Of a stretch of DNA of 64,000 nt, positions 17,028-45,460 are shown piece after piece. Numbering within the stretch: the first letter of the stretch is position 1; each line of letters begins with the position of its first letter. The stretch comes from an uncultured Gammaproteobacteria bacterium (GTDB lineage Bacteria > Patescibacteriota > Patescibacteriia > UBA9934). The notes under the pieces are model-generated. The model saw only the letters and a program-made list of their open reading frames with translations. It was not told where the DNA came from and did no database searches. The position numbers and the translations under genes are program-made. The DNA is taken from positions 200,895-264,894 of the forward strand of contig CAZTKG010000001.1 in NCBI GenBank assembly GCA_964613815.1. The letters are read 5' to 3'.

Positions 17028-17318
17028 CTATACAATGTAAAAATACAAATCCCTCCTCTCTTTATTCGTCCTGTCGATCAACCAATCCTTCTTTTTTCGT
17101 GACCACTTCTTCAATTGGATCTCACGCTCTCTTGCGCCGTCGTAATCACCTCCGGCTTCGAAGTAAACGAGTTTTGTTGCGTTGTATTTCTGTGAAAAAC
17201 CTTCGACTGCCTTTGCTTTATGTTCGTGCACTCTGCGGATAAGATCACTTGTGCAGCCAATGTACAGCACCGTATCGCCCGGGTTGGCCATGATATATAT
17301 GCAGTATTCCTCCTCCAT
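17028..17318 (-). CDS. GIY-YIG nuclease family small protein
   Basis: YCIYIMANPGDTVLYIGCTSDLIRRVHEHK... is the GIY-YIG catalytic module. The ORF-track start at 17345 lies inside repeat copy E, so the start is moved to the ATG at 17318 (MEEEYCIYIM). Confidence 0.75.
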   Translation of the reverse strand: MEEEYCIYIMANPGDTVLYIGCTSDLIRRVHEHKAKAVEGFSQKYNATKLVYFEAGGDYDGAREREIQLKKWSRKKKDWLIDRTNKERRDLYFYIV

Positions 17319-17333
17319 AAATAAAGATAATAC

Positions 17334-17414
17334 CCCCTCTCCCATCTCGACCTTGCGGAGAGATCTTGCGCCTGCCGCTATCAGATCTCTCGACTACGCT
17401 CGAGATGGGAGGGG
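17334..17414. repeat. Family-1 palindromic repeat, copy E
   Basis: cccctctcccatctcgaccttgcggagagatct, loop, agatctctcgactacgctcgagatgggagggg. Immediately 5' of the GIY-YIG gene. Confidence 0.85.
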
Positions 17415-18452: not shown

Positions 18453-19235
18453 TTAGATTATGATCAAAATGATGATCGCTACCGCAATTCGGTAAAGCGA
18501 GAACCAACCGTAGCTGATTTTTGCCACCATTGCAAGGAGAAAACGTATGGCTAGAGTCCCCGCAAAGAAGGCGGAGATGAAGCCAGCGATGATGATTGGG
18601 AGGGGGGTTTCTAGACCTGTCGTGATGACATCGAGGAAGGTGACGAGGCCTGCGCCGGCGATTGCAGGTATGGCGAGGAGGAAGGAGAAGCGGGCGGCGG
18701 CGGTTCTTGAGAGGCCGGCGAGGAGGCCTCCGGTGATGGTGATGCCTGAGCGTGATGTTCCTGGGATGAGGGCGAGCATTTGCATGCAGCCGATGGCGAT
18801 TGCTTTGGTCCAGGTGAGGGTTTCGATGTTTTCTGTGGTCTTTTTGGATGAGGCGAATCTGTCGGCAGCCCAAAGCGCGATACCCCAGACGATGAGGCCT
18901 GTAGCGATGGCTTCTGGGGAGCGTATGAGGTCGATATCGAATACTGATAGGGCTACGCCGAGAATGCCCACTGGGATGGTTGCGATGATGATTTTGGCGA
19001 GGAGGGAGTTTTCTTTCTTGGTTTTGCAGGTTTTGATGAGGTCGGCGATGTCGGTCCTGAGAACCCAGATGATGGCGAGGAGGGTTGCGACGTGGACGGC
19101 GACGTCAAAATCCATCCCCTGCTCGGACCAGCCGAGGAGCTTGGGGATGAAGATGAGGTGGCCCGAAGAGGAGATCGGAAGGAATTCCGTGATCCCCTGG
19201 ACGGCGCCGAGGATGATGGGTTCGAGGAGTTGCAT
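18453..19235 (-). CDS. uppP: Undecaprenyl-diphosphatase UppP/BacA
   Basis: 260 aa polytopic; conserved BacA motifs (GITEFLPISSSGHL; PGTSRSGITITGGL). Confidence 0.9.
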   Translation of the reverse strand: MQLLEPIILGAVQGITEFLPISSSGHLIFIPKLLGWSEQGMDFDVAVHVATLLAIIWVLRTDIADLIKTCKTKKENSLLAKIIIATIPVGILGVALSVFDIDLIRSPEAIATGLIVWGIALWAADRFASSKKTTENIETLTWTKAIAIGCMQMLALIPGTSRSGITITGGLLAGLSRTAAARFSFLLAIPAIAGAGLVTFLDVITTGLETPLPIIIAGFISAFFAGTLAIRFLLAMVAKISYGWFSLYRIAVAIIILIII

Positions 19236-19250
19236 GCGTGTTTTTGACGT

Positions 19251-21302
19251 CTACTCTCCTGTCTTTTTGATCGGTGGGAGGGGTGAGATCTCGCCGCTTG
19301 GCCTTGACTTGGCCGGCGCAGCATTGCTCGTTTCAGACCTTGGTCGGCGATCTTCTTCTGGCTTTCGGCGTCTTCGGCGGCGCTTTCTTGGCTGTCTGCC
19401 CGCAGATTCTGATGAAGTCTGTGGCGACTTTTGATCCTGCTCTGGTTTTTCTTCCTGTTTTAGCACCGCCTCTTTTGGCCTGGGTTTTTCTTGGTCAAAT
19501 TTAAGAGGAGTTGGTGCATCTACAGGCCTTGATTCTTGTTTTGCGACTGGCTTTGATGTGGGCACCTTTCGAGGCTCTTTGCGCTCTTCTTTCTTATCTG
19601 CTGGCGCTGCTAATGCGGAAAGTGAGATACTCTCCCCCACTTTTCGCTCGATCGGCTTGCTGTTTTCGATCTTTGGCTGTGGAGCTAGCGCTGGACGGTC
19701 CTGTCGAGGCGGTCGATCGTTTCGTGGTCGATCTTCTCGTGGTCGATCCTGCCGGCCCTGATCGCTGCGCGGAGGCTTTTGATCTCGCCCTCGATCGCGT
19801 CCGCCTCCGCCCTTTCGCCCCTTTTCTCGCTCTGCCTTGATTTTAGGCATGCAGTCTTCGCAGTAGATTGGCCTTGATCTGTCGAGTTCAACCGGGAGCT
19901 GGAAGTTCTTTTTGCATCCTGAACAGTCGTACGCGTGCCCAAAGCGCTGCTTCTTCATCTCCTTCTTCTTTGTTTTTGCCTTGGCGTATTCGTCGTCCAA
20001 GTCCACATCTTTTCCAAAACCACTCCAAATAGCGACCTTTTCTTCGATCTTGGCTCGCGGCGTCGTGTAACGCTCGCGTGACTGAGCAATGACCCGCTCT
20101 TCCGAGCCTGTCTTTTGTGCGATTGGTGGGAGCGTTGCTGCGGAGAACGGCTGCGATGTGACGCCATCGATCATTAATTTAAGATAAATGTTGAACTTTG
20201 GGAGGTTGATGATGTCCTCCGGTGTGAACCGTGGGAGGAATTCGTCTTCCATGAACTTTGCATCTGGACCACCCACGCGGAATGCAATCAGGGTCCCGAC
20301 GTTTCCAAATACTGCGTCTCGCACCTCTTCCGTGAGTTGTGCGATATACTGGTGCGCCATGACAAGGTTGAGTTTGTATTTTCGCGCCTCAGATAAGATT
20401 GATGCGAATGACTCAACAGCAAAGTTTTGAAACTCATCAACGTAGAGATAAAAGTCTGTTCTATCATCTTTTGCAGTGTCGACACGTTCCATCGCGGACA
20501 TCTGGATCTTGGTGATAAGCATTCCTCCAAGGAGGCGAGACGCGTCCTCTCCAAGTCGCCCCTTTGAAAGGTTTACGATGAAGATTTTTTCCTCGTCCAT
20601 GATCTTTCGAACGTTGATGGAGGAATTTGCTTGCGCGACAATGTTTCGAATAATTGCTGCGGACAAAAACTGACCGACCTTGTTTTGAATCGGCGCTACC
20701 GCCTCGGTGGCGAATTTTTGTTGGTAGGAGGCGAACTCTTTGACCCAGAATTGTTTGACAATTGGATCTGTGACATTTGAGACGATTTCTTTTCTATAGA
20801 CCTCGTCTGAAAGCATGCGGTTGATGCCGAGGAGGGTTGTTCCAGGGTTGTCGATAAGGGCAAGAATGGCGTTGTTGAGGATGTATTCCATTCGTGCAGA
20901 CCAGACGCCTTCCCAGATTTTTTTGAAGACACTCATCATGCCCGCTGCGACGAGATGCTTCATGTTGGCGTCGACGGATTCGAGAATGTTGAATCCGACT
21001 GGATGTTCCAGGTCGCCTGGATTGAAGTAGACGACGTCGTTGATACGCCAGGATGGGATGTAGTCGAGGAGGAGCTCTGCCGTGTCTCCGTGTGGGTCGA
21101 CGTATGCACAGCCGTGGCCGGCGTAAATATCGGACAGGATCATGTTCTCGAGGAGCGTCGTCTTTCCCATGCCGGTTTTTCCGATGACGTAGGTGTGACG
21201 GCGGCGATCATCTGTTTTAATGCCAAATTTCCGCAAGGAGTTGCGGAAGTTTGTTTTGGCAAAATAGATAATGTCGTCTTCGTGTTCGTGCGGATATTGC
21301 AT
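19251..21302 (-). CDS. VirD4/TraD/TrwB-like coupling-protein ATPase with C-terminal zinc ribbon and Arg/Asp-rich tail
   Basis: Walker A VIGKTGMGKTT, Walker B FYLYVDEFQNF, sensor region VMAHQYIAQL. C-terminal CSGCKK...CEDC zinc-ribbon-like and an RDRGRDQKPPRSDQGRQDRPREDRPRNDRPPRQDRP low-complexity tail. Confidence 0.7.
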   Translation of the reverse strand: MQYPHEHEDDIIYFAKTNFRNSLRKFGIKTDDRRRHTYVIGKTGMGKTTLLENMILSDIYAGHGCAYVDPHGDTAELLLDYIPSWRINDVVYFNPGDLEHPVGFNILESVDANMKHLVAAGMMSVFKKIWEGVWSARMEYILNNAILALIDNPGTTLLGINRMLSDEVYRKEIVSNVTDPIVKQFWVKEFASYQQKFATEAVAPIQNKVGQFLSAAIIRNIVAQANSSINVRKIMDEEKIFIVNLSKGRLGEDASRLLGGMLITKIQMSAMERVDTAKDDRTDFYLYVDEFQNFAVESFASILSEARKYKLNLVMAHQYIAQLTEEVRDAVFGNVGTLIAFRVGGPDAKFMEDEFLPRFTPEDIINLPKFNIYLKLMIDGVTSQPFSAATLPPIAQKTGSEERVIAQSRERYTTPRAKIEEKVAIWSGFGKDVDLDDEYAKAKTKKKEMKKQRFGHAYDCSGCKKNFQLPVELDRSRPIYCEDCMPKIKAEREKGRKGGGGRDRGRDQKPPRSDQGRQDRPREDRPRNDRPPRQDRPALAPQPKIENSKPIERKVGESISLSALAAPADKKEERKEPRKVPTSKPVAKQESRPVDAPTPLKFDQEKPRPKEAVLKQEEKPEQDQKSPQTSSESAGRQPRKRRRRRRKPEEDRRPRSETSNAAPAKSRPSGEISPLPPIKKTGE

Positions 21303-21308
21303 AGGCGT

Positions 21309-22898
21309 CTACATTGGCAGATTTGTTGGCGTAGCTTGATCACGGTCAACTGGCTCGTCGCTAATGTCGAGTCCCGGAGGGAGCGGAGCTGGCATCCCTA
21401 CTTTTGGCATCCCTACGTGATCCTGCCTTGACTCTGGTGATTTCTTCTGGGCCTCCGCAATATCTTCCGTTTTGACCTCTTCTTGTTCTGAAGGACCTGT
21501 GGGCGCAGAAGGTGTTGGGACTGTCAGAGGACCTGATCTTACTCTTCTTTGCTTTTGCTTCGGCGCATCTGTTGGTGCCGCGTCTACATTTGGTAGCGTT
21601 GGAACGTCTTCCCCAGCGAAATCGAGATCCACAGGTGGCTCTGCGCGTCTTGCGCCAGTGACACGTAGGACAGGTGTTCGCGCGTCTGCTGCTGGGAAGT
21701 GGAACATGGTTGCAAGCTCTTCGCATGTGAGGATGTATGGCGTACAACCTGGACTGAATGAACGGCTCTGATAGCGCTTTGAGATCGTGCGCTGACGACC
21801 CGGCATCTGCCACTGCATCCAGAAGTAATCGTCTTTTGTGGTTGCTGGAACGTGGATGCCGAAGTTGTTCCAGCCCATGTGACGGTATTGGTGGAAGTAG
21901 CCTTTTGTCATGGCGGCGATCGTCCCTTTTCTGAATTGATCTTTGCGCGCCCAGTAGACAAACCGAACTTTTGACTTCCATCCGAGGGTTTCTAGCTTCT
22001 TTTGGATGCCATCGATCTCCGTCCGTTCTTCTGGCGTGATCTTGAACATTTTGAAATTGTCCTCTTCCGCACCACCCTCGCTTCCCGGCAGCTTAATACC
22101 AAGTGTATCTTCTAGAATCCCACTGACTAACCAGCCTATTGTTTTCTGATAAAATGACTTCTTTTTCTGCTTTGCCTTTCCATATAAGTCGTCGATTCTT
22201 TCGGCCCCCTTGTCCCGCCAATGCTGCTCGTTTGGCTGCATTATGATGAGCTGCATCCAATAGTGCTCGTGGGACTTCATGCGCCCCATTAACTCGAAGA
22301 GCGTGAGCATTGGGTCCTTGAATCGGCCGTCTTTCTCGCCTTGATGCTCGAACATCTCGTACGTCTTGATTGGGAGATAACTAGGCTTTCGAAGCACCAT
22401 CTCTGATCCGAAAAGATCGTATTCCTCTTGTGGCCATTCGGTTGGGATCTTTTTGGTGTAGTCTTCTACTTCTAGGAACTGTGCCTCTGGGTACTGTGCG
22501 TAGAACGCCCCTTGAATGAGGTCAATGTATTTCTGATCAGTTCGAACGTAAAAGCGGATATCTCCTCCGCTACCAGCGATTTCAAATGAAAATATTGCTT
22601 GAAATTTTCCATAGAAATTTGCCTCTTTCCAGGTGATGGATGACTTACTTCCAGCAATTTGCTTGAAGAAGTTTACCATTCCCATTGGGGACTGCATGGA
22701 ATCTGGCGGGACGTGGATTTCGTAGAGATGCCACTTGCGCTTCATGGCAAACTGATCCTGCTTTCTGCCGACCCAGACCATCCAGAACCCCTTGAGCATG
22801 ACCCAAAAAATCCCGACTGGGCCTAGGATGAAAAGCATGTATGCCAATATGACTTCTACTGGCGTGGAGATGAAGTAGCTCTTGATGAGTTCAAACAC
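21309..22898 (-). CDS. Hypothetical membrane protein, predicted partner of the VirD4-like ATPase
   Basis: 529 aa; two N-terminal TM helices, large soluble domain, Pro-rich C-terminus. Stop 6 nt before the ATPase start on the same strand. Confidence 0.55.
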   Translation of the reverse strand: MFELIKSYFISTPVEVILAYMLFILGPVGIFWVMLKGFWMVWVGRKQDQFAMKRKWHLYEIHVPPDSMQSPMGMVNFFKQIAGSKSSITWKEANFYGKFQAIFSFEIAGSGGDIRFYVRTDQKYIDLIQGAFYAQYPEAQFLEVEDYTKKIPTEWPQEEYDLFGSEMVLRKPSYLPIKTYEMFEHQGEKDGRFKDPMLTLFELMGRMKSHEHYWMQLIIMQPNEQHWRDKGAERIDDLYGKAKQKKKSFYQKTIGWLVSGILEDTLGIKLPGSEGGAEEDNFKMFKITPEERTEIDGIQKKLETLGWKSKVRFVYWARKDQFRKGTIAAMTKGYFHQYRHMGWNNFGIHVPATTKDDYFWMQWQMPGRQRTISKRYQSRSFSPGCTPYILTCEELATMFHFPAADARTPVLRVTGARRAEPPVDLDFAGEDVPTLPNVDAAPTDAPKQKQRRVRSGPLTVPTPSAPTGPSEQEEVKTEDIAEAQKKSPESRQDHVGMPKVGMPAPLPPGLDISDEPVDRDQATPTNLPM

Positions 22899-22941
22899 AA
22901 AAGGCGCTTGGTTACTTGCGCCTTATTATATCACAGCTTGG

Positions 22942-23844
22942 TTACGATGATTTCTTCGACGACTTCTTCTCCCACCAAACAAGGAGTGGACTTGCAAGAA
23001 ATAGAGAAGAGTATGCTCCGGAGAGGATCCCGATTATCAGCGCAAGAATGAATGATCGCGTTGTTTCTCCGCCGAAGAGGAAGATCGCGACCAGTACGAG
23101 TAAGGTTGTTACCGAGGTATTGATTGATCGAGCGAAGCTTTGCACCACTGACCTGTTTACAATATCTGCGAATGAGATATCTCGGTAACGATTGCCGATG
23201 AGGTTTTCTCGGGTTCTGTCGAATACTACGATCGTGTCGTTGATGGAGTACCCCATGATCGTGAGCAGCGCCGCGACGAATGCCGTGTCAACCTGGAAGC
23301 CGTAGAGGTGACCTAGGACAGCGAATGCGCCGATTGGGATAATGACATCGTGCACCGCTGCGACAATCGTGAGCAGCCCGTACTTCCATGAAGCGACTGG
23401 CTTTGAGACTTTTCGAAAAGCCCATGCTACGTAGAGGACGATTAAAATGAGGAGGAGGGCTACCGCAGAGATCGATGACTGGCGTAGCTCTTCGCCGATG
23501 ACTGGACCTACTGATTCGTATCGGAGTTCGTCAACTGCGCCAAATGAGGACTCTAGGGCGGCCAGGACATTGTCGTGGTCGTCTTGTGTGATGTTGCCGA
23601 ACCTTAGAATCGCCTCTGTTTCGCCAGATGCCTGCACGGTTGCCGGATAGCCGATGTTTTCTACTGTTGATCGGATCGTTGTGATGTCTACTTCGGATTC
23701 GAATGCGACCTCTAGAATACTTCCGCCCGTGAAGTCGATCCCCATGTTTAGGCCGAATGTTGCGATCGAGAAAATCGATAGCACGATGAGAGCAACCGAT
23801 ATGGTCAGCCAGGTTTTTGTGTTTTTGATTACCGCGATTGCCAT
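22942..23844 (-). CDS. secF: Protein translocase subunit SecF
   Basis: 300 aa, 6 TM, conserved SecF C-terminal half (IGYSINDTIVVFDRTREN); directly downstream of secD. Confidence 0.85.
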   Translation of the reverse strand: MAIAVIKNTKTWLTISVALIVLSIFSIATFGLNMGIDFTGGSILEVAFESEVDITTIRSTVENIGYPATVQASGETEAILRFGNITQDDHDNVLAALESSFGAVDELRYESVGPVIGEELRQSSISAVALLLILIVLYVAWAFRKVSKPVASWKYGLLTIVAAVHDVIIPIGAFAVLGHLYGFQVDTAFVAALLTIMGYSINDTIVVFDRTRENLIGNRYRDISFADIVNRSVVQSFARSINTSVTTLLVLVAIFLFGGETTRSFILALIIGILSGAYSSLFLASPLLVWWEKKSSKKSS

Positions 23845-23845
23845 A

Positions 23846-25870
23846 TTATGATGATTTCTTTTGGGACTCGCTCACTCCGTATAGCCACGTGGACTTCCCT
23901 ACCTTGAATGAACTTGTCCATTTTAAGAATACGCGCGTTACCAGGATCGCAGTGAGCATTGAGATAATAATTCCTACTGCCAGCGTTAGTGCGAAACCTT
24001 TAACAAAACTTGTTGCCATTGAAAAGAGAACGATGGAGGCGATAAGGGTTGTGAGGTTTCCGTCACGAATTGATGTCCATGCTCGGCGGAAGCCTTCGTC
24101 GATCGCTGTTGGGAGGTCTCTCCCGCTCTTTAACTCCTCTTTTAGACGCTCGAAGATCAGGACGTTGGCGTCAACCGCCATTCCAATGGAGAGAATGAAC
24201 CCTGCGATTCCTGCGAGGGTTATCGTGACACCTAGCCATTTGTAGAGTGTGAGGTTGATCGCGCTATATACGAAGAGTGCCATTACTGCCAGAAGACCGC
24301 AGAGTCTGTAGTAAGCGACCATAAAAATCGCGACGAGAGCGAAGCCAATCATCGCTGCCTTTAGGGACCGTTCTAGCGATGTTGCACCAAGGGTTGGGCC
24401 TACTGTTTGCTGACTGACGAGGTCGATAGCTACCGGCAGCGCACCTGCGTTTAGGCGCATTGCGAGTAATTTCGACTCTTCTAGCGTGAAGTTTCCGGAG
24501 ATCGTTGCTTGGCCGCCGTAGATTGCCTCTTGGACGACAGGGATCGAGATCGGCTCTCCGTCTAGGAAGATAGCAATAACTTCCCCAACGCGTGATTCTG
24601 TGAGTTGCTGGAACAGCTCTCCACCCTCCGCATTGAAGTCCATGACAACATATGGAAGACCTGTGTTTGGGTCAAAAGCTACTGATGCTTGATTGATGTG
24701 TTCTCCTGATAGCTCTGTGTTTTCCCAAGCTGCGTCGCCGCCGATAAGGTCGAGAATGGTCGTCCACGGCATTTCGATATGGGCGATATTGTAGGTATAG
24801 ATCGGGCTGGATGATTGACGGTAGATGATGTGATAACCGAAGTCTGTTTCGATTACGCCTGAGATTGATCCGTCTGAGATGGCAAATAATGCATCCTCGA
24901 AGTCTTGGACCATTTGACCTCTCTGAACAAGACCTAAGCTTCCTCCATCTTCTGCACTTGGGCCGTCTGATTTTTCTGTTGCGGTTGCGGCGAAATTTGC
25001 TACTGACACGTCACGCGCGATTTCTTCCGCGAGGAGCTGAGCCTCTACTTTTGAACGGTCGTTGTCGCAGCGCAATGACTCTGCGTGACACACGAGGATA
25101 TGCGAAGCCTCGATTGCAGCATCCTCGACTCGCTCCGTGTAGTTCACGATGTGCATTGAAGAGCCTGACTCATAGAGACCGTTAATGACTCCCGGCTGGA
25201 TGTTTTCTGTCGTGATTTGATTGATGAGCTCTCCGAAAATCGGGCCAGCGTTGTCTAGGTTTTCGATGATACCACCCTCTAATGAGGTTGATCTATCGAT
25301 TGAAAATTCATCTACCAGTGAAGAGAAGTCTTCTCCTGCTAGCGCTCTGTCTAGAACCGCAAGAGCCGATGCTTCTTCTGTGATGTTTGCTGTGTCGATG
25401 ATTGATTGCTGATCCTCTGTAGCGAGTACCTCAGTCTCTCTTGGAATTTTGAATTCAAGGATTGGGGTTTCGCCTATTTGAGCGATTGCCTCTGAGACGT
25501 CGAAAATACCTGCTAGCTCGATGATGATGCGATAATTACCGCCGCCGAGCTGGGTCTGGACGAGCGGTTCTGCGACACCAAATGCGTCTACGCGGCGTTC
25601 GATGACGTCTCGGACACCTTCTAGCGCGCTCTCTCGTTCGCCCTCGTCGATCGCAGACATGTCCGCGTCGTAAACGAGATGAGCTCCGCCCTGGAGATCG
25701 AGTCCGAGCTTGAATTCCTCCTCGTTCAGCGTAACTGCCGGGATGCCGATCGCGTTAAAGAACGTGTTCCACGTCTTTGGGAATGCGATAGATGCAGTAA
25801 ATAAGAACAGCAAAACGATTGCTGCAACGCCTAAGTTTAGGTTTCTTTTTGAAGATTGTTTTTTTGCCAT
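23846..25870 (-). CDS. secD: Protein translocase subunit SecD with an inserted PpiC/parvulin-type PPIase domain
   Basis: SecD P1-head start (LGLDLQGGAHLVY) and C-terminal TM bundle (IDEGFRRAWTSIRDGNLTTLI...). A parvulin-like segment (ASHILVCHAES...GGSLGLVQRGQMVQDFEDALF...FGYHIIY) is embedded in the periplasmic region. Start moved to the internal ATG 25870 (MAKKQSSKRN...); the 73-aa upstream extension looks non-coding. Confidence 0.8.
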   Translation of the reverse strand: MAKKQSSKRNLNLGVAAIVLLFLFTASIAFPKTWNTFFNAIGIPAVTLNEEEFKLGLDLQGGAHLVYDADMSAIDEGERESALEGVRDVIERRVDAFGVAEPLVQTQLGGGNYRIIIELAGIFDVSEAIAQIGETPILEFKIPRETEVLATEDQQSIIDTANITEEASALAVLDRALAGEDFSSLVDEFSIDRSTSLEGGIIENLDNAGPIFGELINQITTENIQPGVINGLYESGSSMHIVNYTERVEDAAIEASHILVCHAESLRCDNDRSKVEAQLLAEEIARDVSVANFAATATEKSDGPSAEDGGSLGLVQRGQMVQDFEDALFAISDGSISGVIETDFGYHIIYRQSSSPIYTYNIAHIEMPWTTILDLIGGDAAWENTELSGEHINQASVAFDPNTGLPYVVMDFNAEGGELFQQLTESRVGEVIAIFLDGEPISIPVVQEAIYGGQATISGNFTLEESKLLAMRLNAGALPVAIDLVSQQTVGPTLGATSLERSLKAAMIGFALVAIFMVAYYRLCGLLAVMALFVYSAINLTLYKWLGVTITLAGIAGFILSIGMAVDANVLIFERLKEELKSGRDLPTAIDEGFRRAWTSIRDGNLTTLIASIVLFSMATSFVKGFALTLAVGIIISMLTAILVTRVFLKWTSSFKVGKSTWLYGVSESQKKSS

Positions 25871-25935
25871 ACAAAAGTGGGGGTATTTTAACAGAATGAT
25901 GGCGTGTGGCAAGGGTTTGTGTGGGTTTTTGAAAA

Positions 25936-25965
25936 AAAGGCTCCCAGGATGGTTACTGGGAGTTG
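25936..25965 (-). terminator. Rho-independent terminator of the 25953..26645 gene
   Basis: On the minus strand ctcccagtaaccatcctgggag followed by cctttttttc. Confidence 0.5.
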
Positions 25966-26645
25966 ATGCGGAACTGGAGTGGATAGGTGACCGTGAGCTC
26001 GTAGGGGTCGAATGTGGGTGAGGTACGTCGAGCCTCACGAACCGCCTTATCCCTGCTTTTTTCGATGTGCGCCCGGGTGTTTTCCGCATTTGCTCCTTCG
26101 AGTAGGAGTGCGTATTTTCTATTCACCCTCTGCACCTCACTTTGACGCTCCCTCCAGACTTGTTCGTCGACCTCTTCTTGATGATCGTCCATCCGAGGGA
26201 AGTGAATCGACTCAAAGACGTCCGCCATACATTCCGTTGCGTCACCCGCCCTGATGTCGGAGCCATACACCCAAGCGACTCGGACACCTCCCCCTTGAGT
26301 TACGACGAAGCGGATCGCTACCGTTGTCACCGTTTTACGTTCGGACTCAGGGTGCATCTCGAAACAGTCGAGAAGTTCCGGCATGCGCGTGATGACGTAA
26401 ACGCTGATGTTTGAGAGCTCTCGCTGCGTTTCCGTATATGGAAACGAAGCTGAAACGATTCCGATCTCTGCAAAGAGAGACCCGACCTCTCCCCAATCGC
26501 GCGTGTAGGATTCGCCTGTTGGGTCGATGAGCTCTTGCGCTGACTTCTCCGGCAGGGACATCCATTTCGCCATCCCCTTTTCTGATGACGTACCTTGAGA
26601 TGCTGCCGCGCTGATGATGAACCAAAAAAGAACAAGAAGATTCAC
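25953..26645 (-). CDS. Hypothetical secreted protein
   Basis: 230 aa with signal peptide MNLLVLFWFIISAAAS. No recognisable domain. Confidence 0.45.
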   Translation of the reverse strand: MNLLVLFWFIISAAASQGTSSEKGMAKWMSLPEKSAQELIDPTGESYTRDWGEVGSLFAEIGIVSASFPYTETQRELSNISVYVITRMPELLDCFEMHPESERKTVTTVAIRFVVTQGGGVRVAWVYGSDIRAGDATECMADVFESIHFPRMDDHQEEVDEQVWRERQSEVQRVNRKYALLLEGANAENTRAHIEKSRDKAVREARRTSPTFDPYELTVTYPLQFRINSQ

Positions 26646-43286: not shown

Positions 43287-43480
43287 AGGCGGTTTGTGGC
43301 CGAACTATAGCGTAAAACGGGGAAAAATCAAGCTTTTTTGGGGAAAACTTGGAGATAGGGGAAAATGTCCATAAAACATTGACAAAATGGGGGTTTTGTG
43401 GTATTTTGTGGCGTTGATCTTTGTCAATTTCACCCCGAATTTGCGCGGTTTCCGTGCAATTTTTCCAACCTGGAGAATCC

Positions 43481-45460
43481 ATGTCCCCCAATCCCTCATT
43501 CCTCGACCGCGCAGAAGGCGCAGCGTTCGACACCATCGGGCAGCACAAGCTGTCACACGGCGATGAGATCCTGGGCTCGCTTCTGCTCAAGCTGCACCTC
43601 CCGGGTGCACGCGGCGCAGAGCTGATGTTCCATGGCAACGACGACAACCTCCCCGAAGGCCCCGAGCATCTGCACGTCGGCATCGGCGGCGGGATGTTCG
43701 ACGAACATCGCGCGGAAGGACGGCTGCCGAATACGTGCAGTGCGGTTCTTGTCGCAGAAGCGCTCGAGATCGCGGATGCGCCCGAACTGCAGCTTGTCCT
43801 CAACGAGGCGCTGCGCGCGGACACAACTTCTGGTCAGCAGACCATGGAGCTCGCGCAGATGATCAAGACGCTGAACTCCCATGGCGATCAGGTCAAGGCG
43901 TCCGACAATCCAGACCTCCGCGTCTGGAAGATGGCGGCGCGGGCCTACCTTGCCGTGATCAACCAGCAGCGTGGCGACGAGCCGCGCGAACTCGACGTCG
44001 AGCAGATGCAGGTCCCGGAGAACTCGTGTCTCCCGGAACTCACCAAGAACAACCGAGCGAAGCAGCGGATCGATACCTTGATCCTCCCGGCGTTCTGCGA
44101 AATCCGCGCGCTCGCGCAAGCGAAGCTCCTGAAATGGTACGGATACGAGGGCTGGAACATGCCCGAGGACTCTGACCGACTGGAGATCGTTTTCGTGCGT
44201 ACCCAGCGTCAGCTGGAGCGCGAGATCCGCGCCTCGGACTATCGCTGTATCGTGATCGGTATCGAAGGAGGGCAGGTCCCTCCAACGATGACGGTCAGGC
44301 GGCTCGCCAAAGACCTCAAGGTCCGGTGGGTCAAGGAGATGCTGCGCGTGTTCCTGCGCGAGTGTCATCGGTGGGACCGCTACGGCCCCGATGGCTACGA
44401 ACCCGACGACGGCGGCGAGAGCCCCGACTACGACAGCCGGCGGTGGGTCCGCCCCCTCGAGCTCGTCAACTTGGTCAGCTGGCTCAATGGCTGGTCCAAG
44501 ATGGGTCCGGTGGAGATCTGGGACTACGTGGAAGAGGTGTTCGACGCCGTCTTCCGTGAGAGTCAGAACTTCTGGGAGGTCTGTCCCGCGCAGTTCAAGC
44601 GACGTGCCTTTGTGACGTCGTTCCCACTTCCGGAATCCTGTCGCGTTCGCATCGTGCCCGAAGTCGTCGAGAACATCCACGACGACGAAGACGAATACGA
44701 CGCGGACATCGACGGTCCGCGCGGCCTGATCGAGACGGTTTCGGCAGGCGTCAAGCTCCTTGAAGGACCCGCACCTGAGGCGCCGGAACAGCGGCTGAAG
44801 ATCTGTATCGTGTTCACCAACAACTCGGTGATGCACAAGTATGCGAGAGCGATCGAAGGCTGTCATGTGGTCATCGTGCGCAACAGCCGCCGTCAGGTTC
44901 AGCTGTTCACACATCGAGATCACAAGATGGCGGCACGGTATGCTGCAGCAGCCATCAGCCTGCTGGAGCACGTCGTCGCAGAGCAGGACCATGACCTCGA
45001 GGCGCAGTGGGCCCATATCTGTGAGATCGCTCGAACTGGACGTGGTCGCAACCTCCTCGGCGCAGCGTCCCACTGGTATGCGCATGATGTGGCCGGAAGT
45101 GTCCTCAACGGTTCCCTGACACATCCCGAGGTCCCGGCAACGAAACTCGATGATCACGAGCTCGTCGAAATGGTCCTCGCCGCTGCCGCTGCGTATGTAG
45201 GCGACTTCGCAGCCCTTCAGGACGCACAATTCGACGCTGCGTCCCGACTTGCCACGGGTCAGAAGTCCTCAACCGAGGAAGAGATCGCCACCGTGCACGA
45301 CAACGTCGCAGATCTCTTCGACTACATCAAGGGCCTTCGGCTCGTGATGGCGGATGAGGGCGACGAGGCCGTGACCGAGGACGACACCGAAGTCGATGAG
45401 GATGCGACCGAGGTCGAAGTCGACCTGCAGGCAGATTTCGACCCCACCTCCGACGAGTAG
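43481..45460 (+). CDS. Large hypothetical protein (659 aa) with acidic C-terminal tail; GC-rich, likely horizontally acquired
   Basis: Start at the ATG preceded by GGAGaatcc; ORF track begins at 43421. Weak promoter-like TTGGAC-N18-TATTTT upstream. No recognisable domain; C-terminus DEGDEAVTEDDTEVDEDATEVEVD. The antisense 558-aa ORF is judged spurious. Confidence 0.5.
   Translation: MSPNPSFLDRAEGAAFDTIGQHKLSHGDEILGSLLLKLHLPGARGAELMFHGNDDNLPEGPEHLHVGIGGGMFDEHRAEGRLPNTCSAVLVAEALEIADAPELQLVLNEALRADTTSGQQTMELAQMIKTLNSHGDQVKASDNPDLRVWKMAARAYLAVINQQRGDEPRELDVEQMQVPENSCLPELTKNNRAKQRIDTLILPAFCEIRALAQAKLLKWYGYEGWNMPEDSDRLEIVFVRTQRQLEREIRASDYRCIVIGIEGGQVPPTMTVRRLAKDLKVRWVKEMLRVFLRECHRWDRYGPDGYEPDDGGESPDYDSRRWVRPLELVNLVSWLNGWSKMGPVEIWDYVEEVFDAVFRESQNFWEVCPAQFKRRAFVTSFPLPESCRVRIVPEVVENIHDDEDEYDADIDGPRGLIETVSAGVKLLEGPAPEAPEQRLKICIVFTNNSVMHKYARAIEGCHVVIVRNSRRQVQLFTHRDHKMAARYAAAAISLLEHVVAEQDHDLEAQWAHICEIARTGRGRNLLGAASHWYAHDVAGSVLNGSLTHPEVPATKLDDHELVEMVLAAAAAYVGDFAALQDAQFDAASRLATGQKSSTEEEIATVHDNVADLFDYIKGLRLVMADEGDEAVTEDDTEVDEDATEVEVDLQADFDPTSDE

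What the first reader, a model, noticed from the sequence alone, without database searches (positions are those of the whole stretch)
19251..22898. Two-gene module: membrane partner + VirD4/TraD-like ATPase carrying a zinc ribbon and an Arg/Asp-repeat tail
The 683-aa protein has the Walker A/B and sensor motifs of conjugative coupling proteins (TrwB/VirD4/TraD, FtsK/HerA superfamily). No other type IV secretion or relaxase gene is visible in the window. Its C-terminus adds a CxxC...CxxC zinc ribbon and a long RD/RP low-complexity tail, which is not typical for canonical VirD4. The upstream 529-aa protein (two N-terminal TM helices, large soluble domain) is translationally adjacent, with a 6-nt gap. 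This could be a minimal DNA-translocation or uptake/segregation module.
Basis: partly seen in the sequence, partly recalled or inferred. Interest (0 to 1): 0.6.

Follow-up and report, generated by a model that had tools for sequence, protein, structure and literature searches.

The report
Split coupling-protein ATPase of Patescibacteria
The two genes are the two halves of a long-form type IV secretion coupling ATPase (a membrane-anchor/DUF8128 half and a motor half) that ultra-small Patescibacteria keep among housekeeping genes, away from any secretion or conjugation genes, so what it transports is still open.

Summary
A 529-aa and a 683-aa ORF lie on the minus strand, 6 nt apart. The ATPase passes Pfam thresholds for three coupling-protein (T4CP) families and carries a CxxC-x17-CxxC zinc ribbon.

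Two corrections:
- The partner has one hydrophobic segment, not two clear TM helices.
- The Arg/Asp repeat is a lineage-specific 15-nt tandem repeat.

The new result concerns the partner. It is Pfam DUF8128, and it is homologous to the N-terminal domain of single-chain long T4CPs.
- Bacillus phage G gp156: hhalign 97.9%; Foldseek E 5.6e-15.
- Actinobacterial plasmid T4CPs: hhalign 93.6%, 323 columns. These sit in PrgI–VirB4–T4CP–Replic_Relax–NlpC/P60 clusters.

So the pair is a split T4CP.

In 80 species-level Patescibacteria loci, the ATPase follows DUF8128 in 51 of 74 loci with room, mostly 30 nt apart or less. SecDF or a sigma-like gene lies upstream. No VirB4 or relaxase is nearby. The motor is more conserved (median 70% identity) than SecD or SecF (about 50%).

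The most likely role is a membrane-tethered substrate motor, probably for nucleic acid, feeding the T4SS encoded elsewhere. An autonomous, exapted role is not excluded. I rate it a new variant of a known kind, with moderate interest.

The parts
21309..22898 (-). Partner gene: 529-aa DUF8128 (PF26449) protein, the N-terminal half of a split long-form T4CP
   Evidence: The ORF is. The identical protein P0001 carries a precomputed PF26449 hit, named DUF8128. The family has 2,578 50%-identity clusters at E<=1e-3. The AF2 core has pLDDT about 85-93.
22776..22880 (-). N-terminal hydrophobic membrane anchor, aa 7-41, followed by a K/R-rich stretch that predicts a cytoplasmic domain
   Evidence: Kyte-Doolittle scan. 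AF2 models a single helix at aa 14-53. The topology follows from the positive-inside rule and is an inference.
21684..22736 (-). DUF8128 alpha/beta core, aa 55-405, including the invariant FEHQGEKDxRFKDP and ELATxxHFPxxDARTPV motifs
   Evidence: Alignment A1. hhalign to phage G gp156 gives 97.9%, E 6e-13. hhalign to the actinobacterial T4CP N-domain gives 93.6%, E 2.1e-7. Foldseek against BFVD gives E 5.6e-15. Foldseek against PDB puts TrwK/VirB4 on top, E 4.4e-4.
21312..21683 (-). Disordered linker (aa 406-495) and conserved C-terminal peptide (GMPAPLPPGLD ... PTNLPM)
   Evidence: pLDDT is below 50 at aa 407-496. The terminal PPxNLP[FVI] motif is present in nearly all 80 loci, including those without an adjacent ATPase.
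19251..21302 (-). ATPase gene: 683-aa soluble T4CP-class motor, the C-terminal half of the split T4CP
   Evidence: No hydrophobic segment was found. It is 31% identical over 390 aa to the C-terminal half of the Embleya plasmid T4CP, E 3e-59.
20013..21221 (-). Nucleotide-binding domain with an inserted all-alpha domain, aa 28-430. Walker A lies at 21159-21182 and Walker B at 20433-20450.
   Evidence: The Pfam TrwB_AAD_bind alignment covers aa 28-341, profile positions 9-308. AF2 shows helices at aa 112-236 between the core strands.
19842..19934 (-). CxxC-x17-CxxC zinc ribbon, aa 457-487
   Evidence: The matches are below threshold here: zf_Tbcl_2 20.4 vs 27 bits and TIGR04272 21.1 vs 36 bits. 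Homologues carry PF23477. The Cys residues are invariant. The ribbon is present in 39 of 48 ATPases.
19254..19841 (-). Basic disordered tail, aa 488-683, net charge +21. It holds a 15-nt tandem repeat (19711-19748) and the polybasic RKRRRRRRK run (19362-19388).
   Evidence: Composition and alignment of the tails. Tandem repeat. Motif positions.
22942..26089 (-). Conserved upstream neighbours secF (22942-23844) and secD (23846-26089). The real secD start is probably near 25870. SecD carries a PPIase insert.
   Evidence: Pfam. SecD-SecF lies directly upstream of DUF8128 in 46 of 80 loci.
18453..19235 (-). Downstream neighbour uppP/bacA
   Evidence: Pfam BacA. It lies downstream of the ATPase in 15 of 80 loci.

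Best explanation
**What it is.** The locus encodes one machine in two pieces, a split long-form type IV coupling protein (T4CP).
- Piece 1 is the DUF8128 protein. It has an N-terminal membrane anchor, a cytoplasmic alpha/beta domain of about 350 aa, and a disordered linker that ends in a short conserved peptide.
- Piece 2 is the soluble motor. It has a VirD4/TrwB-type nucleotide-binding domain with an all-alpha insert, a CxxC-x17-CxxC zinc ribbon and a basic disordered tail.
- In relatives from actinobacterial plasmids and Bacillus phages, both pieces form a single polypeptide of 810-910 aa.

**Shown.**
- Membership of both halves in these families.
- The split-versus-fused relationship.
- Tight, probably translationally coupled gene adjacency across Patescibacteria.
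- A chromosomal housekeeping context.
- Unusually strong conservation of the motor.

**Inferred mechanism.**
1. The DUF8128 half tethers the motor at the cytoplasmic face of the membrane and scaffolds it. The motor presumably forms a hexamer.
2. ATP hydrolysis drives a polymeric substrate towards a membrane conduit encoded elsewhere. The most likely conduit is the monoderm-type T4SS that most Patescibacteria carry.
3. These genomes lack relaxases, so the zinc ribbon and polybasic tail may engage nucleic acid directly, taking over the relaxosome-recognition role of canonical T4CP C-termini.
For: **T4CP class of the motor**
- Pfam scores are above threshold.
- The nearest solved sequences are DotL and TrwB.
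- The best fold match is Cag-beta, E 1e-5.

**The partner is the T4CP N-domain**
- PHROG 5156 (824-position profile) matches both proteins colinearly. The partner covers profile positions 55-295, E 3e-10. The ATPase covers 402-804, E 8.7e-60.
- A deep DUF8128 profile against phage G gp156 gives 97.9%, E 6e-13, 304 columns. VirB4, TrsD, TrsK and shuffled controls give 0.5% or less.
- The same profile against a 3-sequence actinobacterial T4CP N-domain alignment gives 93.6%, E 2.1e-7, 323 columns. The alignment starts right after the TM helix.
- Foldseek of the partner model against BFVD matches gp156 at E 5.6e-15 and the phage JL 913-aa protein at E 8e-14.

**Genomic setting of the fused relatives**
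- The actinobacterial protein sits in a conserved PrgI–VirB4–T4CP–Replic_Relax–NlpC/P60 cluster.
- Phage G gp155, next to gp156, is VirB4-like.
- SPO1 gp27.4 sits next to a Replic_Relax protein.

**Coupling of the two genes in Patescibacteria**
- They are adjacent in 51 of 74 informative loci. In 38 of those 51 the gap is 30 nt or less, and 14 overlap.

**Conservation**
- Median identity is 69.8% for the ATPase, 51.2% for SecF and 49.2% for SecD. The ATPase is the higher in 33 of 33 loci.

**Literature (PMC12102498)**
- VirD4-type homologues occur in 2,918 of 3,035 Patescibacteria genomes, but only 148 of 5,713 lie near virB4.
- VirB4 occurs in 2,417 genomes, and relaxases are rare.
Against: - No T4SS gene lies near the pair in the window or in any of the 80 related loci.
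- T4CP homologues are found in more Patescibacteria genomes than VirB4 is (PMC12102498).
- In Ca. Southlakia epibionticum the T4SS is essential. SEML1_0293, the likely fused orthologue, is scored non-essential. That orthology is inferred from domain offsets and a shared upstream sigma-like gene, not shown.
  - This is not decisive. From general knowledge, pilus biogenesis by T4SSs does not need the coupling protein.
- About 70% identity across classes is far more than conjugative T4CPs usually show. That hints at a different, more constrained job.
- Nucleic-acid binding by the zinc ribbon and tail is untested, and 9 of 48 homologues lack the ribbon.
- The ATPase structure model is only moderate, mean pLDDT 63.9.
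Confidence: 0.5

Rival explanations
1. The split T4CP has been exapted in Patescibacteria. It works on its own, or with a non-T4SS partner, as a housekeeping membrane-associated translocase or remodelling ATPase, independent of the T4SS.
For: - It is never next to T4SS genes.
- It is present in 96% of Patescibacteria genomes, against 80% for VirB4 (PMC12102498).
- It is more conserved than SecD or SecF.
- It sits in core-genome synteny: secA...secD-secF-DUF8128-ATPase-uppP, or with a sigma-like gene upstream.
- The authors of PMC12102498 themselves say exaptation 'cannot be ruled out'.
- The likely ML1 orthologue is dispensable while the T4SS is essential.
Against: - No T4CP is known to act without a T4SS channel.
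- One TM helix per subunit gives no obvious pore.
- MAG incompleteness can explain part of the 96% vs 80% difference.
- No alternative partner was identified here.
Confidence: 0.27
2. The pair is an accessory of the Sec protein-export pathway or of membrane-protein biogenesis.
For: - secD-secF lies directly upstream of DUF8128 in 46 of 80 loci. That includes 10 loci where the ATPase is not adjacent.
- secA lies a few genes further upstream in the window and in 12 loci.
Against: - In about 31 of 80 loci the upstream gene is instead a Sigma70_r4/HARE-HTH gene.
- The relatives outside Patescibacteria sit with VirB4 and Replic_Relax relaxase-type genes, not with Sec genes.
- Conserved gene order among related lineages can simply be inherited.
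Confidence: 0.07
3. The pair is the coupling protein of an integrated conjugative or mobilisable element.
For: - It belongs to the T4CP family.
- Homologues occur on plasmids of Actinobacteria, Bacillota and archaea.
Against: - No relaxase, integrase, VirB4 or other mobile-element gene is present in the window.
- GC content is even across the region.
- The same locus with the same housekeeping neighbours occurs in dozens of species.
- Identity of 58-82% across species indicates vertical inheritance.
Confidence: 0.03
4. The pair is an FtsK-like chromosome segregation or dimer-resolution pump, or a ComEC-pathway DNA-uptake motor.
For: - The ATPase belongs to the FtsK-HerA superfamily.
- It is membrane-tethered.
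- It has a basic tail and a zinc ribbon.
Against: - A canonical, essential FtsK with 4TM, alpha, beta and gamma domains exists in Ca. S. epibionticum.
- The Pfam FtsK_SpoIIIE score is only 16.4 bits against a threshold of 24.
- In the ML1 Tn-seq, comEC and dprA insertion read counts stay flat or rise. Counts for SEML1_0293 fall about 4-fold. The phenotypes therefore differ.
Confidence: 0.08
5. The pair is an anti-phage defence ATPase of the HerA or MADS mad8 type.
For: PADLOC mad8 matches at E 1.4e-19, with weak HerA hits.
Against: - There are no defence-island neighbours.
- The partner has no PADLOC hit.
- The pair is near-universal, vertically inherited and very highly conserved, which is the opposite of defence-gene behaviour.
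Confidence: 0.02

Closest known systems
Long-form T4CPs in actinobacterial plasmid T4SS clusters (for example Embleya sp. NBC_00896 WP_331738717.1, 812 aa, in PrgI–VirB4–T4CP–Replic_Relax–NlpC/P60)
   Same: - The order of elements is the same: N-terminal TM helix followed by an Arg-rich stretch, a DUF8128-like domain, then a T4CP ATPase.
- The N-domain is homologous (hhalign 93.6%, E 2.1e-7, 323 columns).
- The junction motif ELAxLxHxPxDAxxPxLxxxGAR is shared.
- The ATPase half is 31% identical, E 3e-59.
   Different: - It is a single polypeptide.
- It is embedded in a T4SS and relaxase cluster on plasmids.
- It has no zinc ribbon or basic tail.
- The Patescibacteria version is split into two genes, is chromosomal, and has no T4SS or relaxase neighbours.
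Bacillus phage proteins of PHROG 5156 (phage G gp156, 825 aa) and the weaker SPO1 relative gp27.4 (906 aa)
   Same: They have a DUF8128-like N-domain fused to the same ATPase class. They sit next to a VirB4-like protein (gp155) or a Replic_Relax protein (gp27.3).
   Different: - They are fused.
- They lack the N-terminal membrane anchor.
- They are phage-encoded, and their function is unknown.
Canonical coupling proteins TrwB (R388), VirD4, TraD, Cag-beta and DotL
   Same: - They share the Walker A/B nucleotide-binding domain with an all-alpha insert.
- Pfam T4CP families are passed.
- The best fold match is Cag-beta.
- The nearest PDB sequences are DotL and TrwB.
- They also use a C-terminal extension as a substrate-recognition region.
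   Different: - Canonical T4CPs carry two TM helices in the same chain and no DUF8128 domain.
- They are encoded with a T4SS or relaxase.
- They evolve fast.
- This ATPase misses the NCBIfam family cut-offs by far: 46.6 vs 366 bits and 40.3 vs 250 bits.
VirB4/TrwK N-terminal domain
   Same: All of the top ten PDB fold matches of the partner model are TrwK/VirB4 chains (best E 4.4e-4, probability 1.0). VirB4 and T4CPs are sister ATPase families.
   Different: - The TM-score is only about 0.30.
- Sequence profiles give no signal against three VirB4 proteins or TrsD.
- The ATPase half matches T4CP models, not VirB4 models.
- The resemblance is a lead, not an established homology.
'T4CP homologues' of Patescibacteria reported by Quinonero-Coronel et al. 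2025 (PMC12102498), and SEML1_0293 of Ca. Southlakia epibionticum (PMC10633639)
   Same: - This is very probably the same ATPase family. [quoted passage not shown]
- SEML1_0293 has the same three Pfam domains, offset by about 372 aa.
- It has the same sigma-like gene upstream as many of the DUF8128 loci.
   Different: - Neither paper describes the DUF8128 partner, the split/fused relationship or the zinc-ribbon tail.
- The SEML1_0293 sequence could not be retrieved, so the orthology is inferred.

Membership tests
Type IV coupling proteins (VirD4/TrwB/TraD) | P-loop nucleotide-binding domain that matches T4CP profile models above curated thresholds | tested here: met
   TrwB_AAD_bind scores 33.6 vs 20.5 bits, T4SS-DNA_transf 28.6 vs 20.1, and TraG-D_C 26.1 vs 22. 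Walker A and B are present.
Type IV coupling proteins (VirD4/TrwB/TraD) | All-alpha domain inserted in the nucleotide-binding domain | tested here: met
   The Pfam alignment spans profile positions 9-308. The AF2 model has eight helices at aa 112-236 between the core strands. The best fold match is Cag-beta. Model quality is moderate.
Type IV coupling proteins (VirD4/TrwB/TraD) | N-terminal transmembrane domain in the same polypeptide | tested here: not met
   The 683-aa protein has no hydrophobic segment. The anchor is supplied in trans by the DUF8128 protein.
Type IV coupling proteins (VirD4/TrwB/TraD) | Encoded with a T4SS (VirB4) and/or a relaxase | tested here: not met
   None is found in the window or in the 80 related loci. 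The rest of the genome could not be searched.
Type IV coupling proteins (VirD4/TrwB/TraD) | Equivalog-level match to a named T4CP family (TraD, CD1115) | tested here: not met
   SXT_TraD scores 46.6 vs a cut-off of 366 bits. conju_CD1115 scores 40.3 vs 250 bits.
Type IV coupling proteins (VirD4/TrwB/TraD) | Hexameric assembly and DNA-stimulated ATPase activity | not testable with these tools
   This needs biochemistry or a multimer structure prediction.
DUF8128 (Pfam PF26449) | Match to the Pfam model | tested here: met
   The identical protein P0001 and all 120 listed homologues carry a precomputed PF26449.1 hit. The family is named DUF8128. The local Pfam copy gave no hit, presumably because it lacks this model.
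Long-form (TM–DUF8128–ATPase) T4CPs of monoderm plasmids and phages | N-domain homologous to DUF8128, followed by a T4CP ATPase in colinear order | tested here: met
   PHROG 5156 matches both proteins colinearly. hhalign gives 97.9% to gp156 and 93.6% to the actinobacterial N-domain. Foldseek gives E 5.6e-15. In the window the two parts are separate genes.
VirB4 (pair read as a split VirB4) | N-terminal domain with the VirB4 NTD fold | tested here: inconclusive
VirB4 (pair read as a split VirB4) | ATPase domain that matches VirB4 models (AAA_10, CagE_TrbE_VirB, TIGR00929) | tested here: not met
   There is no Pfam AAA_10 or CagE hit at E<=0.1. TIGR00929 scores 18.5 vs 643 bits, on the P-loop only. 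No VirB4 appears among the fold matches of the ATPase.
FtsK/SpoIIIE | FtsK motor domain above threshold, 4TM N-domain and gamma domain | tested here: not met
   FtsK_SpoIIIE scores 16.4 vs 24 bits, on the P-loop only. No 4TM or gamma domain is present.
HerA | DUF87/HerA central domain above threshold | tested here: not met
   DUF87 scores 20.0 vs 23.2 bits. HerA is the second-best fold match, E 1.8e-4.
CxxC-x17-CxxC zinc ribbon (TIGR04272 / Pfam zf_Tbcl_2) | Four Cys with the defining spacing and a profile match | tested here: inconclusive
   The spacing is exact: C460, C463, C481, C484. Scores here are below the cut-offs, 21.1 vs 36 and 20.4 vs 27 bits. Many homologues carry a precomputed PF23477 hit.

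The most novel reading that the evidence does not exclude
The pair is a relaxase-independent nucleic-acid motor. The zinc ribbon and polybasic tail bind DNA or RNA directly. The split T4CP then drives import of host nucleic acid, or its export, through the Patescibacteria T4SS. This would be analogous to the archaeal Ced and Helicobacter ComB DNA-import systems, and it would give these nucleotide-auxotrophic epibionts a route to acquire nucleotides. As a corollary, DUF8128 would be the counterpart of the VirB4 N-domain, retained in an old branch of coupling proteins. That would imply the common ancestor of VirB4 and VirD4 had this two-domain layout.
Probability: 0.15. Interest if true: 0.85.

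Novelty: new variant of a known kind. Interest (0 to 1): 0.55.

Why it matters
Patescibacteria make up a large share of bacterial diversity. They depend on host cells, and in the one cultivated member tested the T4SS is essential, yet its gene cluster shows no coupling protein or relaxase. A 2025 survey noted near-universal 'orphan' T4CP homologues whose role is unknown.

This analysis adds four points:
- It gives a domain of unknown function (DUF8128) an identity, as the N-terminal half of a long-form coupling protein.
- It shows that the Patescibacteria version is split into two tightly coupled genes.
- It shows that the motor is more conserved than SecD or SecF.
- It shows that the motor has gained a zinc-ribbon and basic tail where canonical T4CPs recognise relaxosomes.

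This yields a concrete, testable candidate for how these cells select and drive T4SS cargo. Alternatively, it is a case of a conjugation ATPase recruited to a housekeeping job. A genetic system already exists to test this in Saccharibacteria.

Tried and rejected
1. **Stop-codon readthrough or a recent fusion.** The two ORFs share a frame. I rejected this because only 15 of 51 related loci are in frame, which is the chance rate, and none is fused.
2. **Direct BLAST of the partner** against phage genomes, plasmids and IMG/VR contigs. No hits were found. Only profile or fold methods see the homology.
3. **hhalign of the shallow alignments** against single pSK41 TrsD, TrsE (VirB4) and TrsK (VirD4) sequences. 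This was uninformative.
4. **A third database search seeded with the L060 partner**, to look for fused Patescibacteria forms. None of the best 120 hits was fused. The DUF8128 content of SEML1_0293 therefore remains inferred.
6. **Defence-system reading** based on the PADLOC mad8 hit. I rejected it on context and conservation. The MADS preprint gave no domain description for mad8.
7. **FtsK substitute.** I rejected this because a canonical essential FtsK exists in ML1.
8. **Own promoter or terminator for the pair.** The consensus scan found nothing above shuffled expectation.
9. **GMPAPLPPGLD motif as an ATPase-docking peptide.** It occurs only in close relatives. The terminal PPxNLP motif is universal, including in loci without an adjacent ATPase, so no correlation could be drawn.
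10. **Literature searches** for PF26449 and DUF8128 returned nothing.

Full report
**Observation**

The two ORFs are as reported. The ATPase is 19251-21302 (-), 683 aa. The partner is 21309-22898 (-), 529 aa, with a GTG start. The gap is 6 nt.

- The ATPase has Walker A GKTGMGKT (aa 41-48) and Walker B YLYVDE (aa 285-290).
- It passes the Pfam gathering thresholds of TrwB_AAD_bind, T4SS-DNA_transf and TraG-D_C.
- NCBIfam gives only sub-threshold TraD and CD1115 hits.
- The nearest solved sequences are DotL and TrwB.
- A moderate AlphaFold model (mean pLDDT 63.9) best matches H. pylori Cag-beta (E 1e-5), then HerA.
- The zinc ribbon has exact CxxC-x17-CxxC spacing. Its four Cys are invariant in 25 homologues.

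Two details of the finding need correction. First, the partner has one hydrophobic stretch (aa 7-41), modelled as a single helix. Second, the RD/RP repeat is a local 15-nt tandem repeat that homologues lack. The conserved tail features are the ribbon, a PPKVxDGEVI...SL motif, a polybasic run and a terminal PGExIxF motif.

**Organism and context**

Homologues of both proteins come from Patescibacteria, mostly Candidatus Uhrbacteria.

The window is core genome. It holds hrcA, dnaK, dnaJ, uppP, secF, secD, secA, murB, murC, glyA, dnaB, clpB, tgt and folD, and one tRNA. There is no T4SS, relaxase or integrase gene. tblastn with actinobacterial PrgI, VirB4, Replic_Relax and NlpC/P60 finds nothing in the window or in 80 related loci. 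GC content is even across the region.

**What the partner is**

No library model in the local copies recognises it. The identical database protein carries Pfam PF26449, which is DUF8128. The family has 2,578 50%-identity clusters. I found no literature on it.

The alignment shows four parts:
- a TM anchor;
- a well-conserved core of about 350 aa, with invariant FEHQGEKDxRFKDP and ELATxxHFPxxDARTPV motifs;
- a variable disordered linker;
- a terminal PPxNLP peptide, conserved in nearly all loci.

The AF2 model has a confident core.

The key result is that this protein is homologous to the N-terminal half of single-chain proteins whose C-terminal half is the same ATPase class.

1. PHROG 5156 matches both window proteins colinearly.
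2. Bacillus phage G gp156 (825 aa) matches the ATPase in its C-half (28.5% identity). It matches DUF8128 in its N-half: hhalign 93.8% with the shallow profile, 97.9% and E 6e-13 over 304 columns with a 186-sequence profile, and Foldseek E 5.6e-15.
3. An 812-aa 'conjugative DNA transfer family protein' on an Embleya plasmid has the same layout: a TM helix, an Arg-rich stretch, a DUF8128-like domain and a T4CP ATPase. With two further actinobacterial sequences, the N-domain alignment scores 93.6%, E 2.1e-7 over 323 columns against the DUF8128 profile. Controls (three VirB4 proteins, TrsD, TrsK, a shuffled sequence) score 0.5% or less.

That actinobacterial gene sits in a cluster conserved in three replicons: PrgI(VirB3)–VirB4–T4CP–Replic_Relax–NlpC/P60. 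Phage G gp155, next to gp156, is VirB4-like. SPO1 gp27.4 is a weaker relative and sits next to a Replic_Relax protein.

The window pair is therefore a split long-form T4CP.

**A fold-level lead**

**Co-occurrence**

More than 549 species-representative genomes encode a DUF8128 relative. Among the best 80 loci:
- The ATPase lies immediately downstream on the same strand in 51.
- Six loci end too early to tell.
- Twenty-three have no ATPase within about 6 kb.

All 51 adjacent pairs are split genes. Thirty-eight have gaps of 30 nt or less, and 14 overlap.

Upstream, secD-secF is present in 46 loci and a Sigma70_r4/HARE-HTH gene in about 31.

| Protein | Median identity to the window, same loci |
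|---|---|
| ATPase core | 69.8% |
| SecF | 51.2% |
| SecD | 49.2% |
| UppP | 46% |
| DUF8128 | 36.2% |

The ATPase is more conserved than SecD and SecF in 33 of 33 loci. The zinc ribbon is present in 39 of 48 complete ATPases.

**Literature**

PMC12102498 reports VirD4-type homologues in 2,918 of 3,035 Patescibacteria genomes (5,713 copies). Only 148 lie near virB4. VirB4 is present in 2,417 genomes, and relaxases are rare. The authors leave open that the T4CP was exapted. They do not describe the partner.

In Ca. Southlakia epibionticum (PMC10633639 supplements):
- SEML1_0293 (921 aa) has the same three Pfam domains, offset by about 372 aa, and the same sigma-like upstream neighbour. It is probably a fused orthologue, but this is inferred.
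- It is scored non-essential. Its insertion read counts fall from 5817 to 2940 to 1372, while comEC stays flat.
- A paralogue, SEML1_0142, is essential.
- A canonical FtsK is present and essential.

**Interpretation**

Shown:
- The pair is the two halves of a T4CP-class machine.
- It is vertically inherited and chromosomal.
- It is detached from T4SS and relaxase genes.
- Its motor is under unusually strong constraint.

Inferred:
- The DUF8128 half tethers and scaffolds a hexameric motor at the membrane.
- The cargo is probably nucleic acid, engaged through the ribbon and basic tail in the absence of relaxases.
- The conduit is probably the monoderm-type T4SS encoded elsewhere.
- Non-essentiality in ML1 does not contradict this. 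From general knowledge, T4SS pilus biogenesis does not require the coupling protein.

An autonomous, exapted role is the main rival. Sec-linked, mobile-element, FtsK/ComEC-like and defence readings are weaker, for the reasons given under each rival.

**Verdict**

The module is a new variant of a known kind: a split, DUF8128-anchored T4CP with a zinc-ribbon tail, in a housekeeping setting. It is of moderate interest because it gives a testable candidate for cargo selection, or for exaptation, in a large and poorly understood bacterial lineage.

Noticed in passing
window 23846-26089 (-): SecD carries a PPIC-type peptidyl-prolyl isomerase (rotamase) insert at aa 320-424. The same insert is present in the fused SecDF of a Magasanikbacteria locus, L054. 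The listed ORF is probably too long at its 5' end. Gene callers give 674 aa.
   Followed up: partly
L039:4845-5855, L060:4776-5810 and about 29 other loci (absent from the window): A gene of about 340 aa that combines Sigma70 region 4 with a HARE-HTH domain lies directly upstream of DUF8128 in about 31 of 80 species loci. Its likely counterpart in Ca. S. epibionticum, SEML1_0294, is annotated RpoS and is essential.
   Followed up: partly
window 19711-19748: A 15-nt tandem repeat (2.5 copies, 91% matches) encodes the DRPRE/DRPRN repeat in the ATPase tail. It is a lineage-specific expansion that homologues lack.
   Followed up: yes
window 22899-22941: A GC-rich hairpin, AAGGCGC-n10-GCGCCTTTT, preceded by GATATAAT, lies between the secF stop and the partner's GTG start. 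The consensus terminator and promoter scan did not flag it.
   Followed up: partly
window 17028-17345 (-): A small GIY-YIG nuclease-family ORF sits between the SPFH/Band 7 gene and the Na/Ca exchanger gene (Pfam annotation of the identical contig).
   Followed up: no
window 43421-45460: A 679-aa ORF on the + strand has no Pfam match. A 558-aa ORF on the - strand overlaps it almost fully. Both lie in the most GC-rich part of the window (GC 0.60 at 44-46 kb). Which strand is coding was not resolved.
   Followed up: no
L081 (Bacillus phage G 87975-97174); L082 (phage SPO1): Phage G encodes a VirB4-like ATPase (gp155, conju_CD1110 E 3e-51) next to the DUF8128–T4CP fusion gp156. SPO1 gp27.4, a weaker fused relative, sits next to a Replic_Relax protein (gp27.3) and near an actin-like ALP protein (gp27.9). 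Why large Bacillus phages keep conjugation-type ATPases is unexplained.
   Followed up: partly
L002, L003, L006-L008 and many others: Many TPA metagenome-assembled genomes are titled 'uncultured Gammaproteobacteria bacterium' yet carry typical Patescibacteria secDF–DUF8128–ATPase loci. The record titles look wrong.
   Followed up: no
L087 (Sulfitobacter mediterraneus plasmid NZ_CP081110.1, 99994-101181): The closest plasmid relative of the ATPase (38.8% identity, E 1e-91) is a stand-alone 395-aa protein with no N-domain. It is flanked by a recombinase and transposases on a non-mobilisable alphaproteobacterial plasmid. Overall, 298 of the 382 plasmid records with a match are typed non-mobilisable.
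   Followed up: partly
Ca. S. epibionticum SEML1_0142 (PMC10633639 supplement): A second T4CP-like paralogue in Saccharibacteria (1,019 aa, P-loop domain at aa 381-800) is essential. It sits next to gyrB and gyrA, after two small essential or growth-defect genes. It may be the real T4SS coupling ATPase there, or something else.
   Followed up: no
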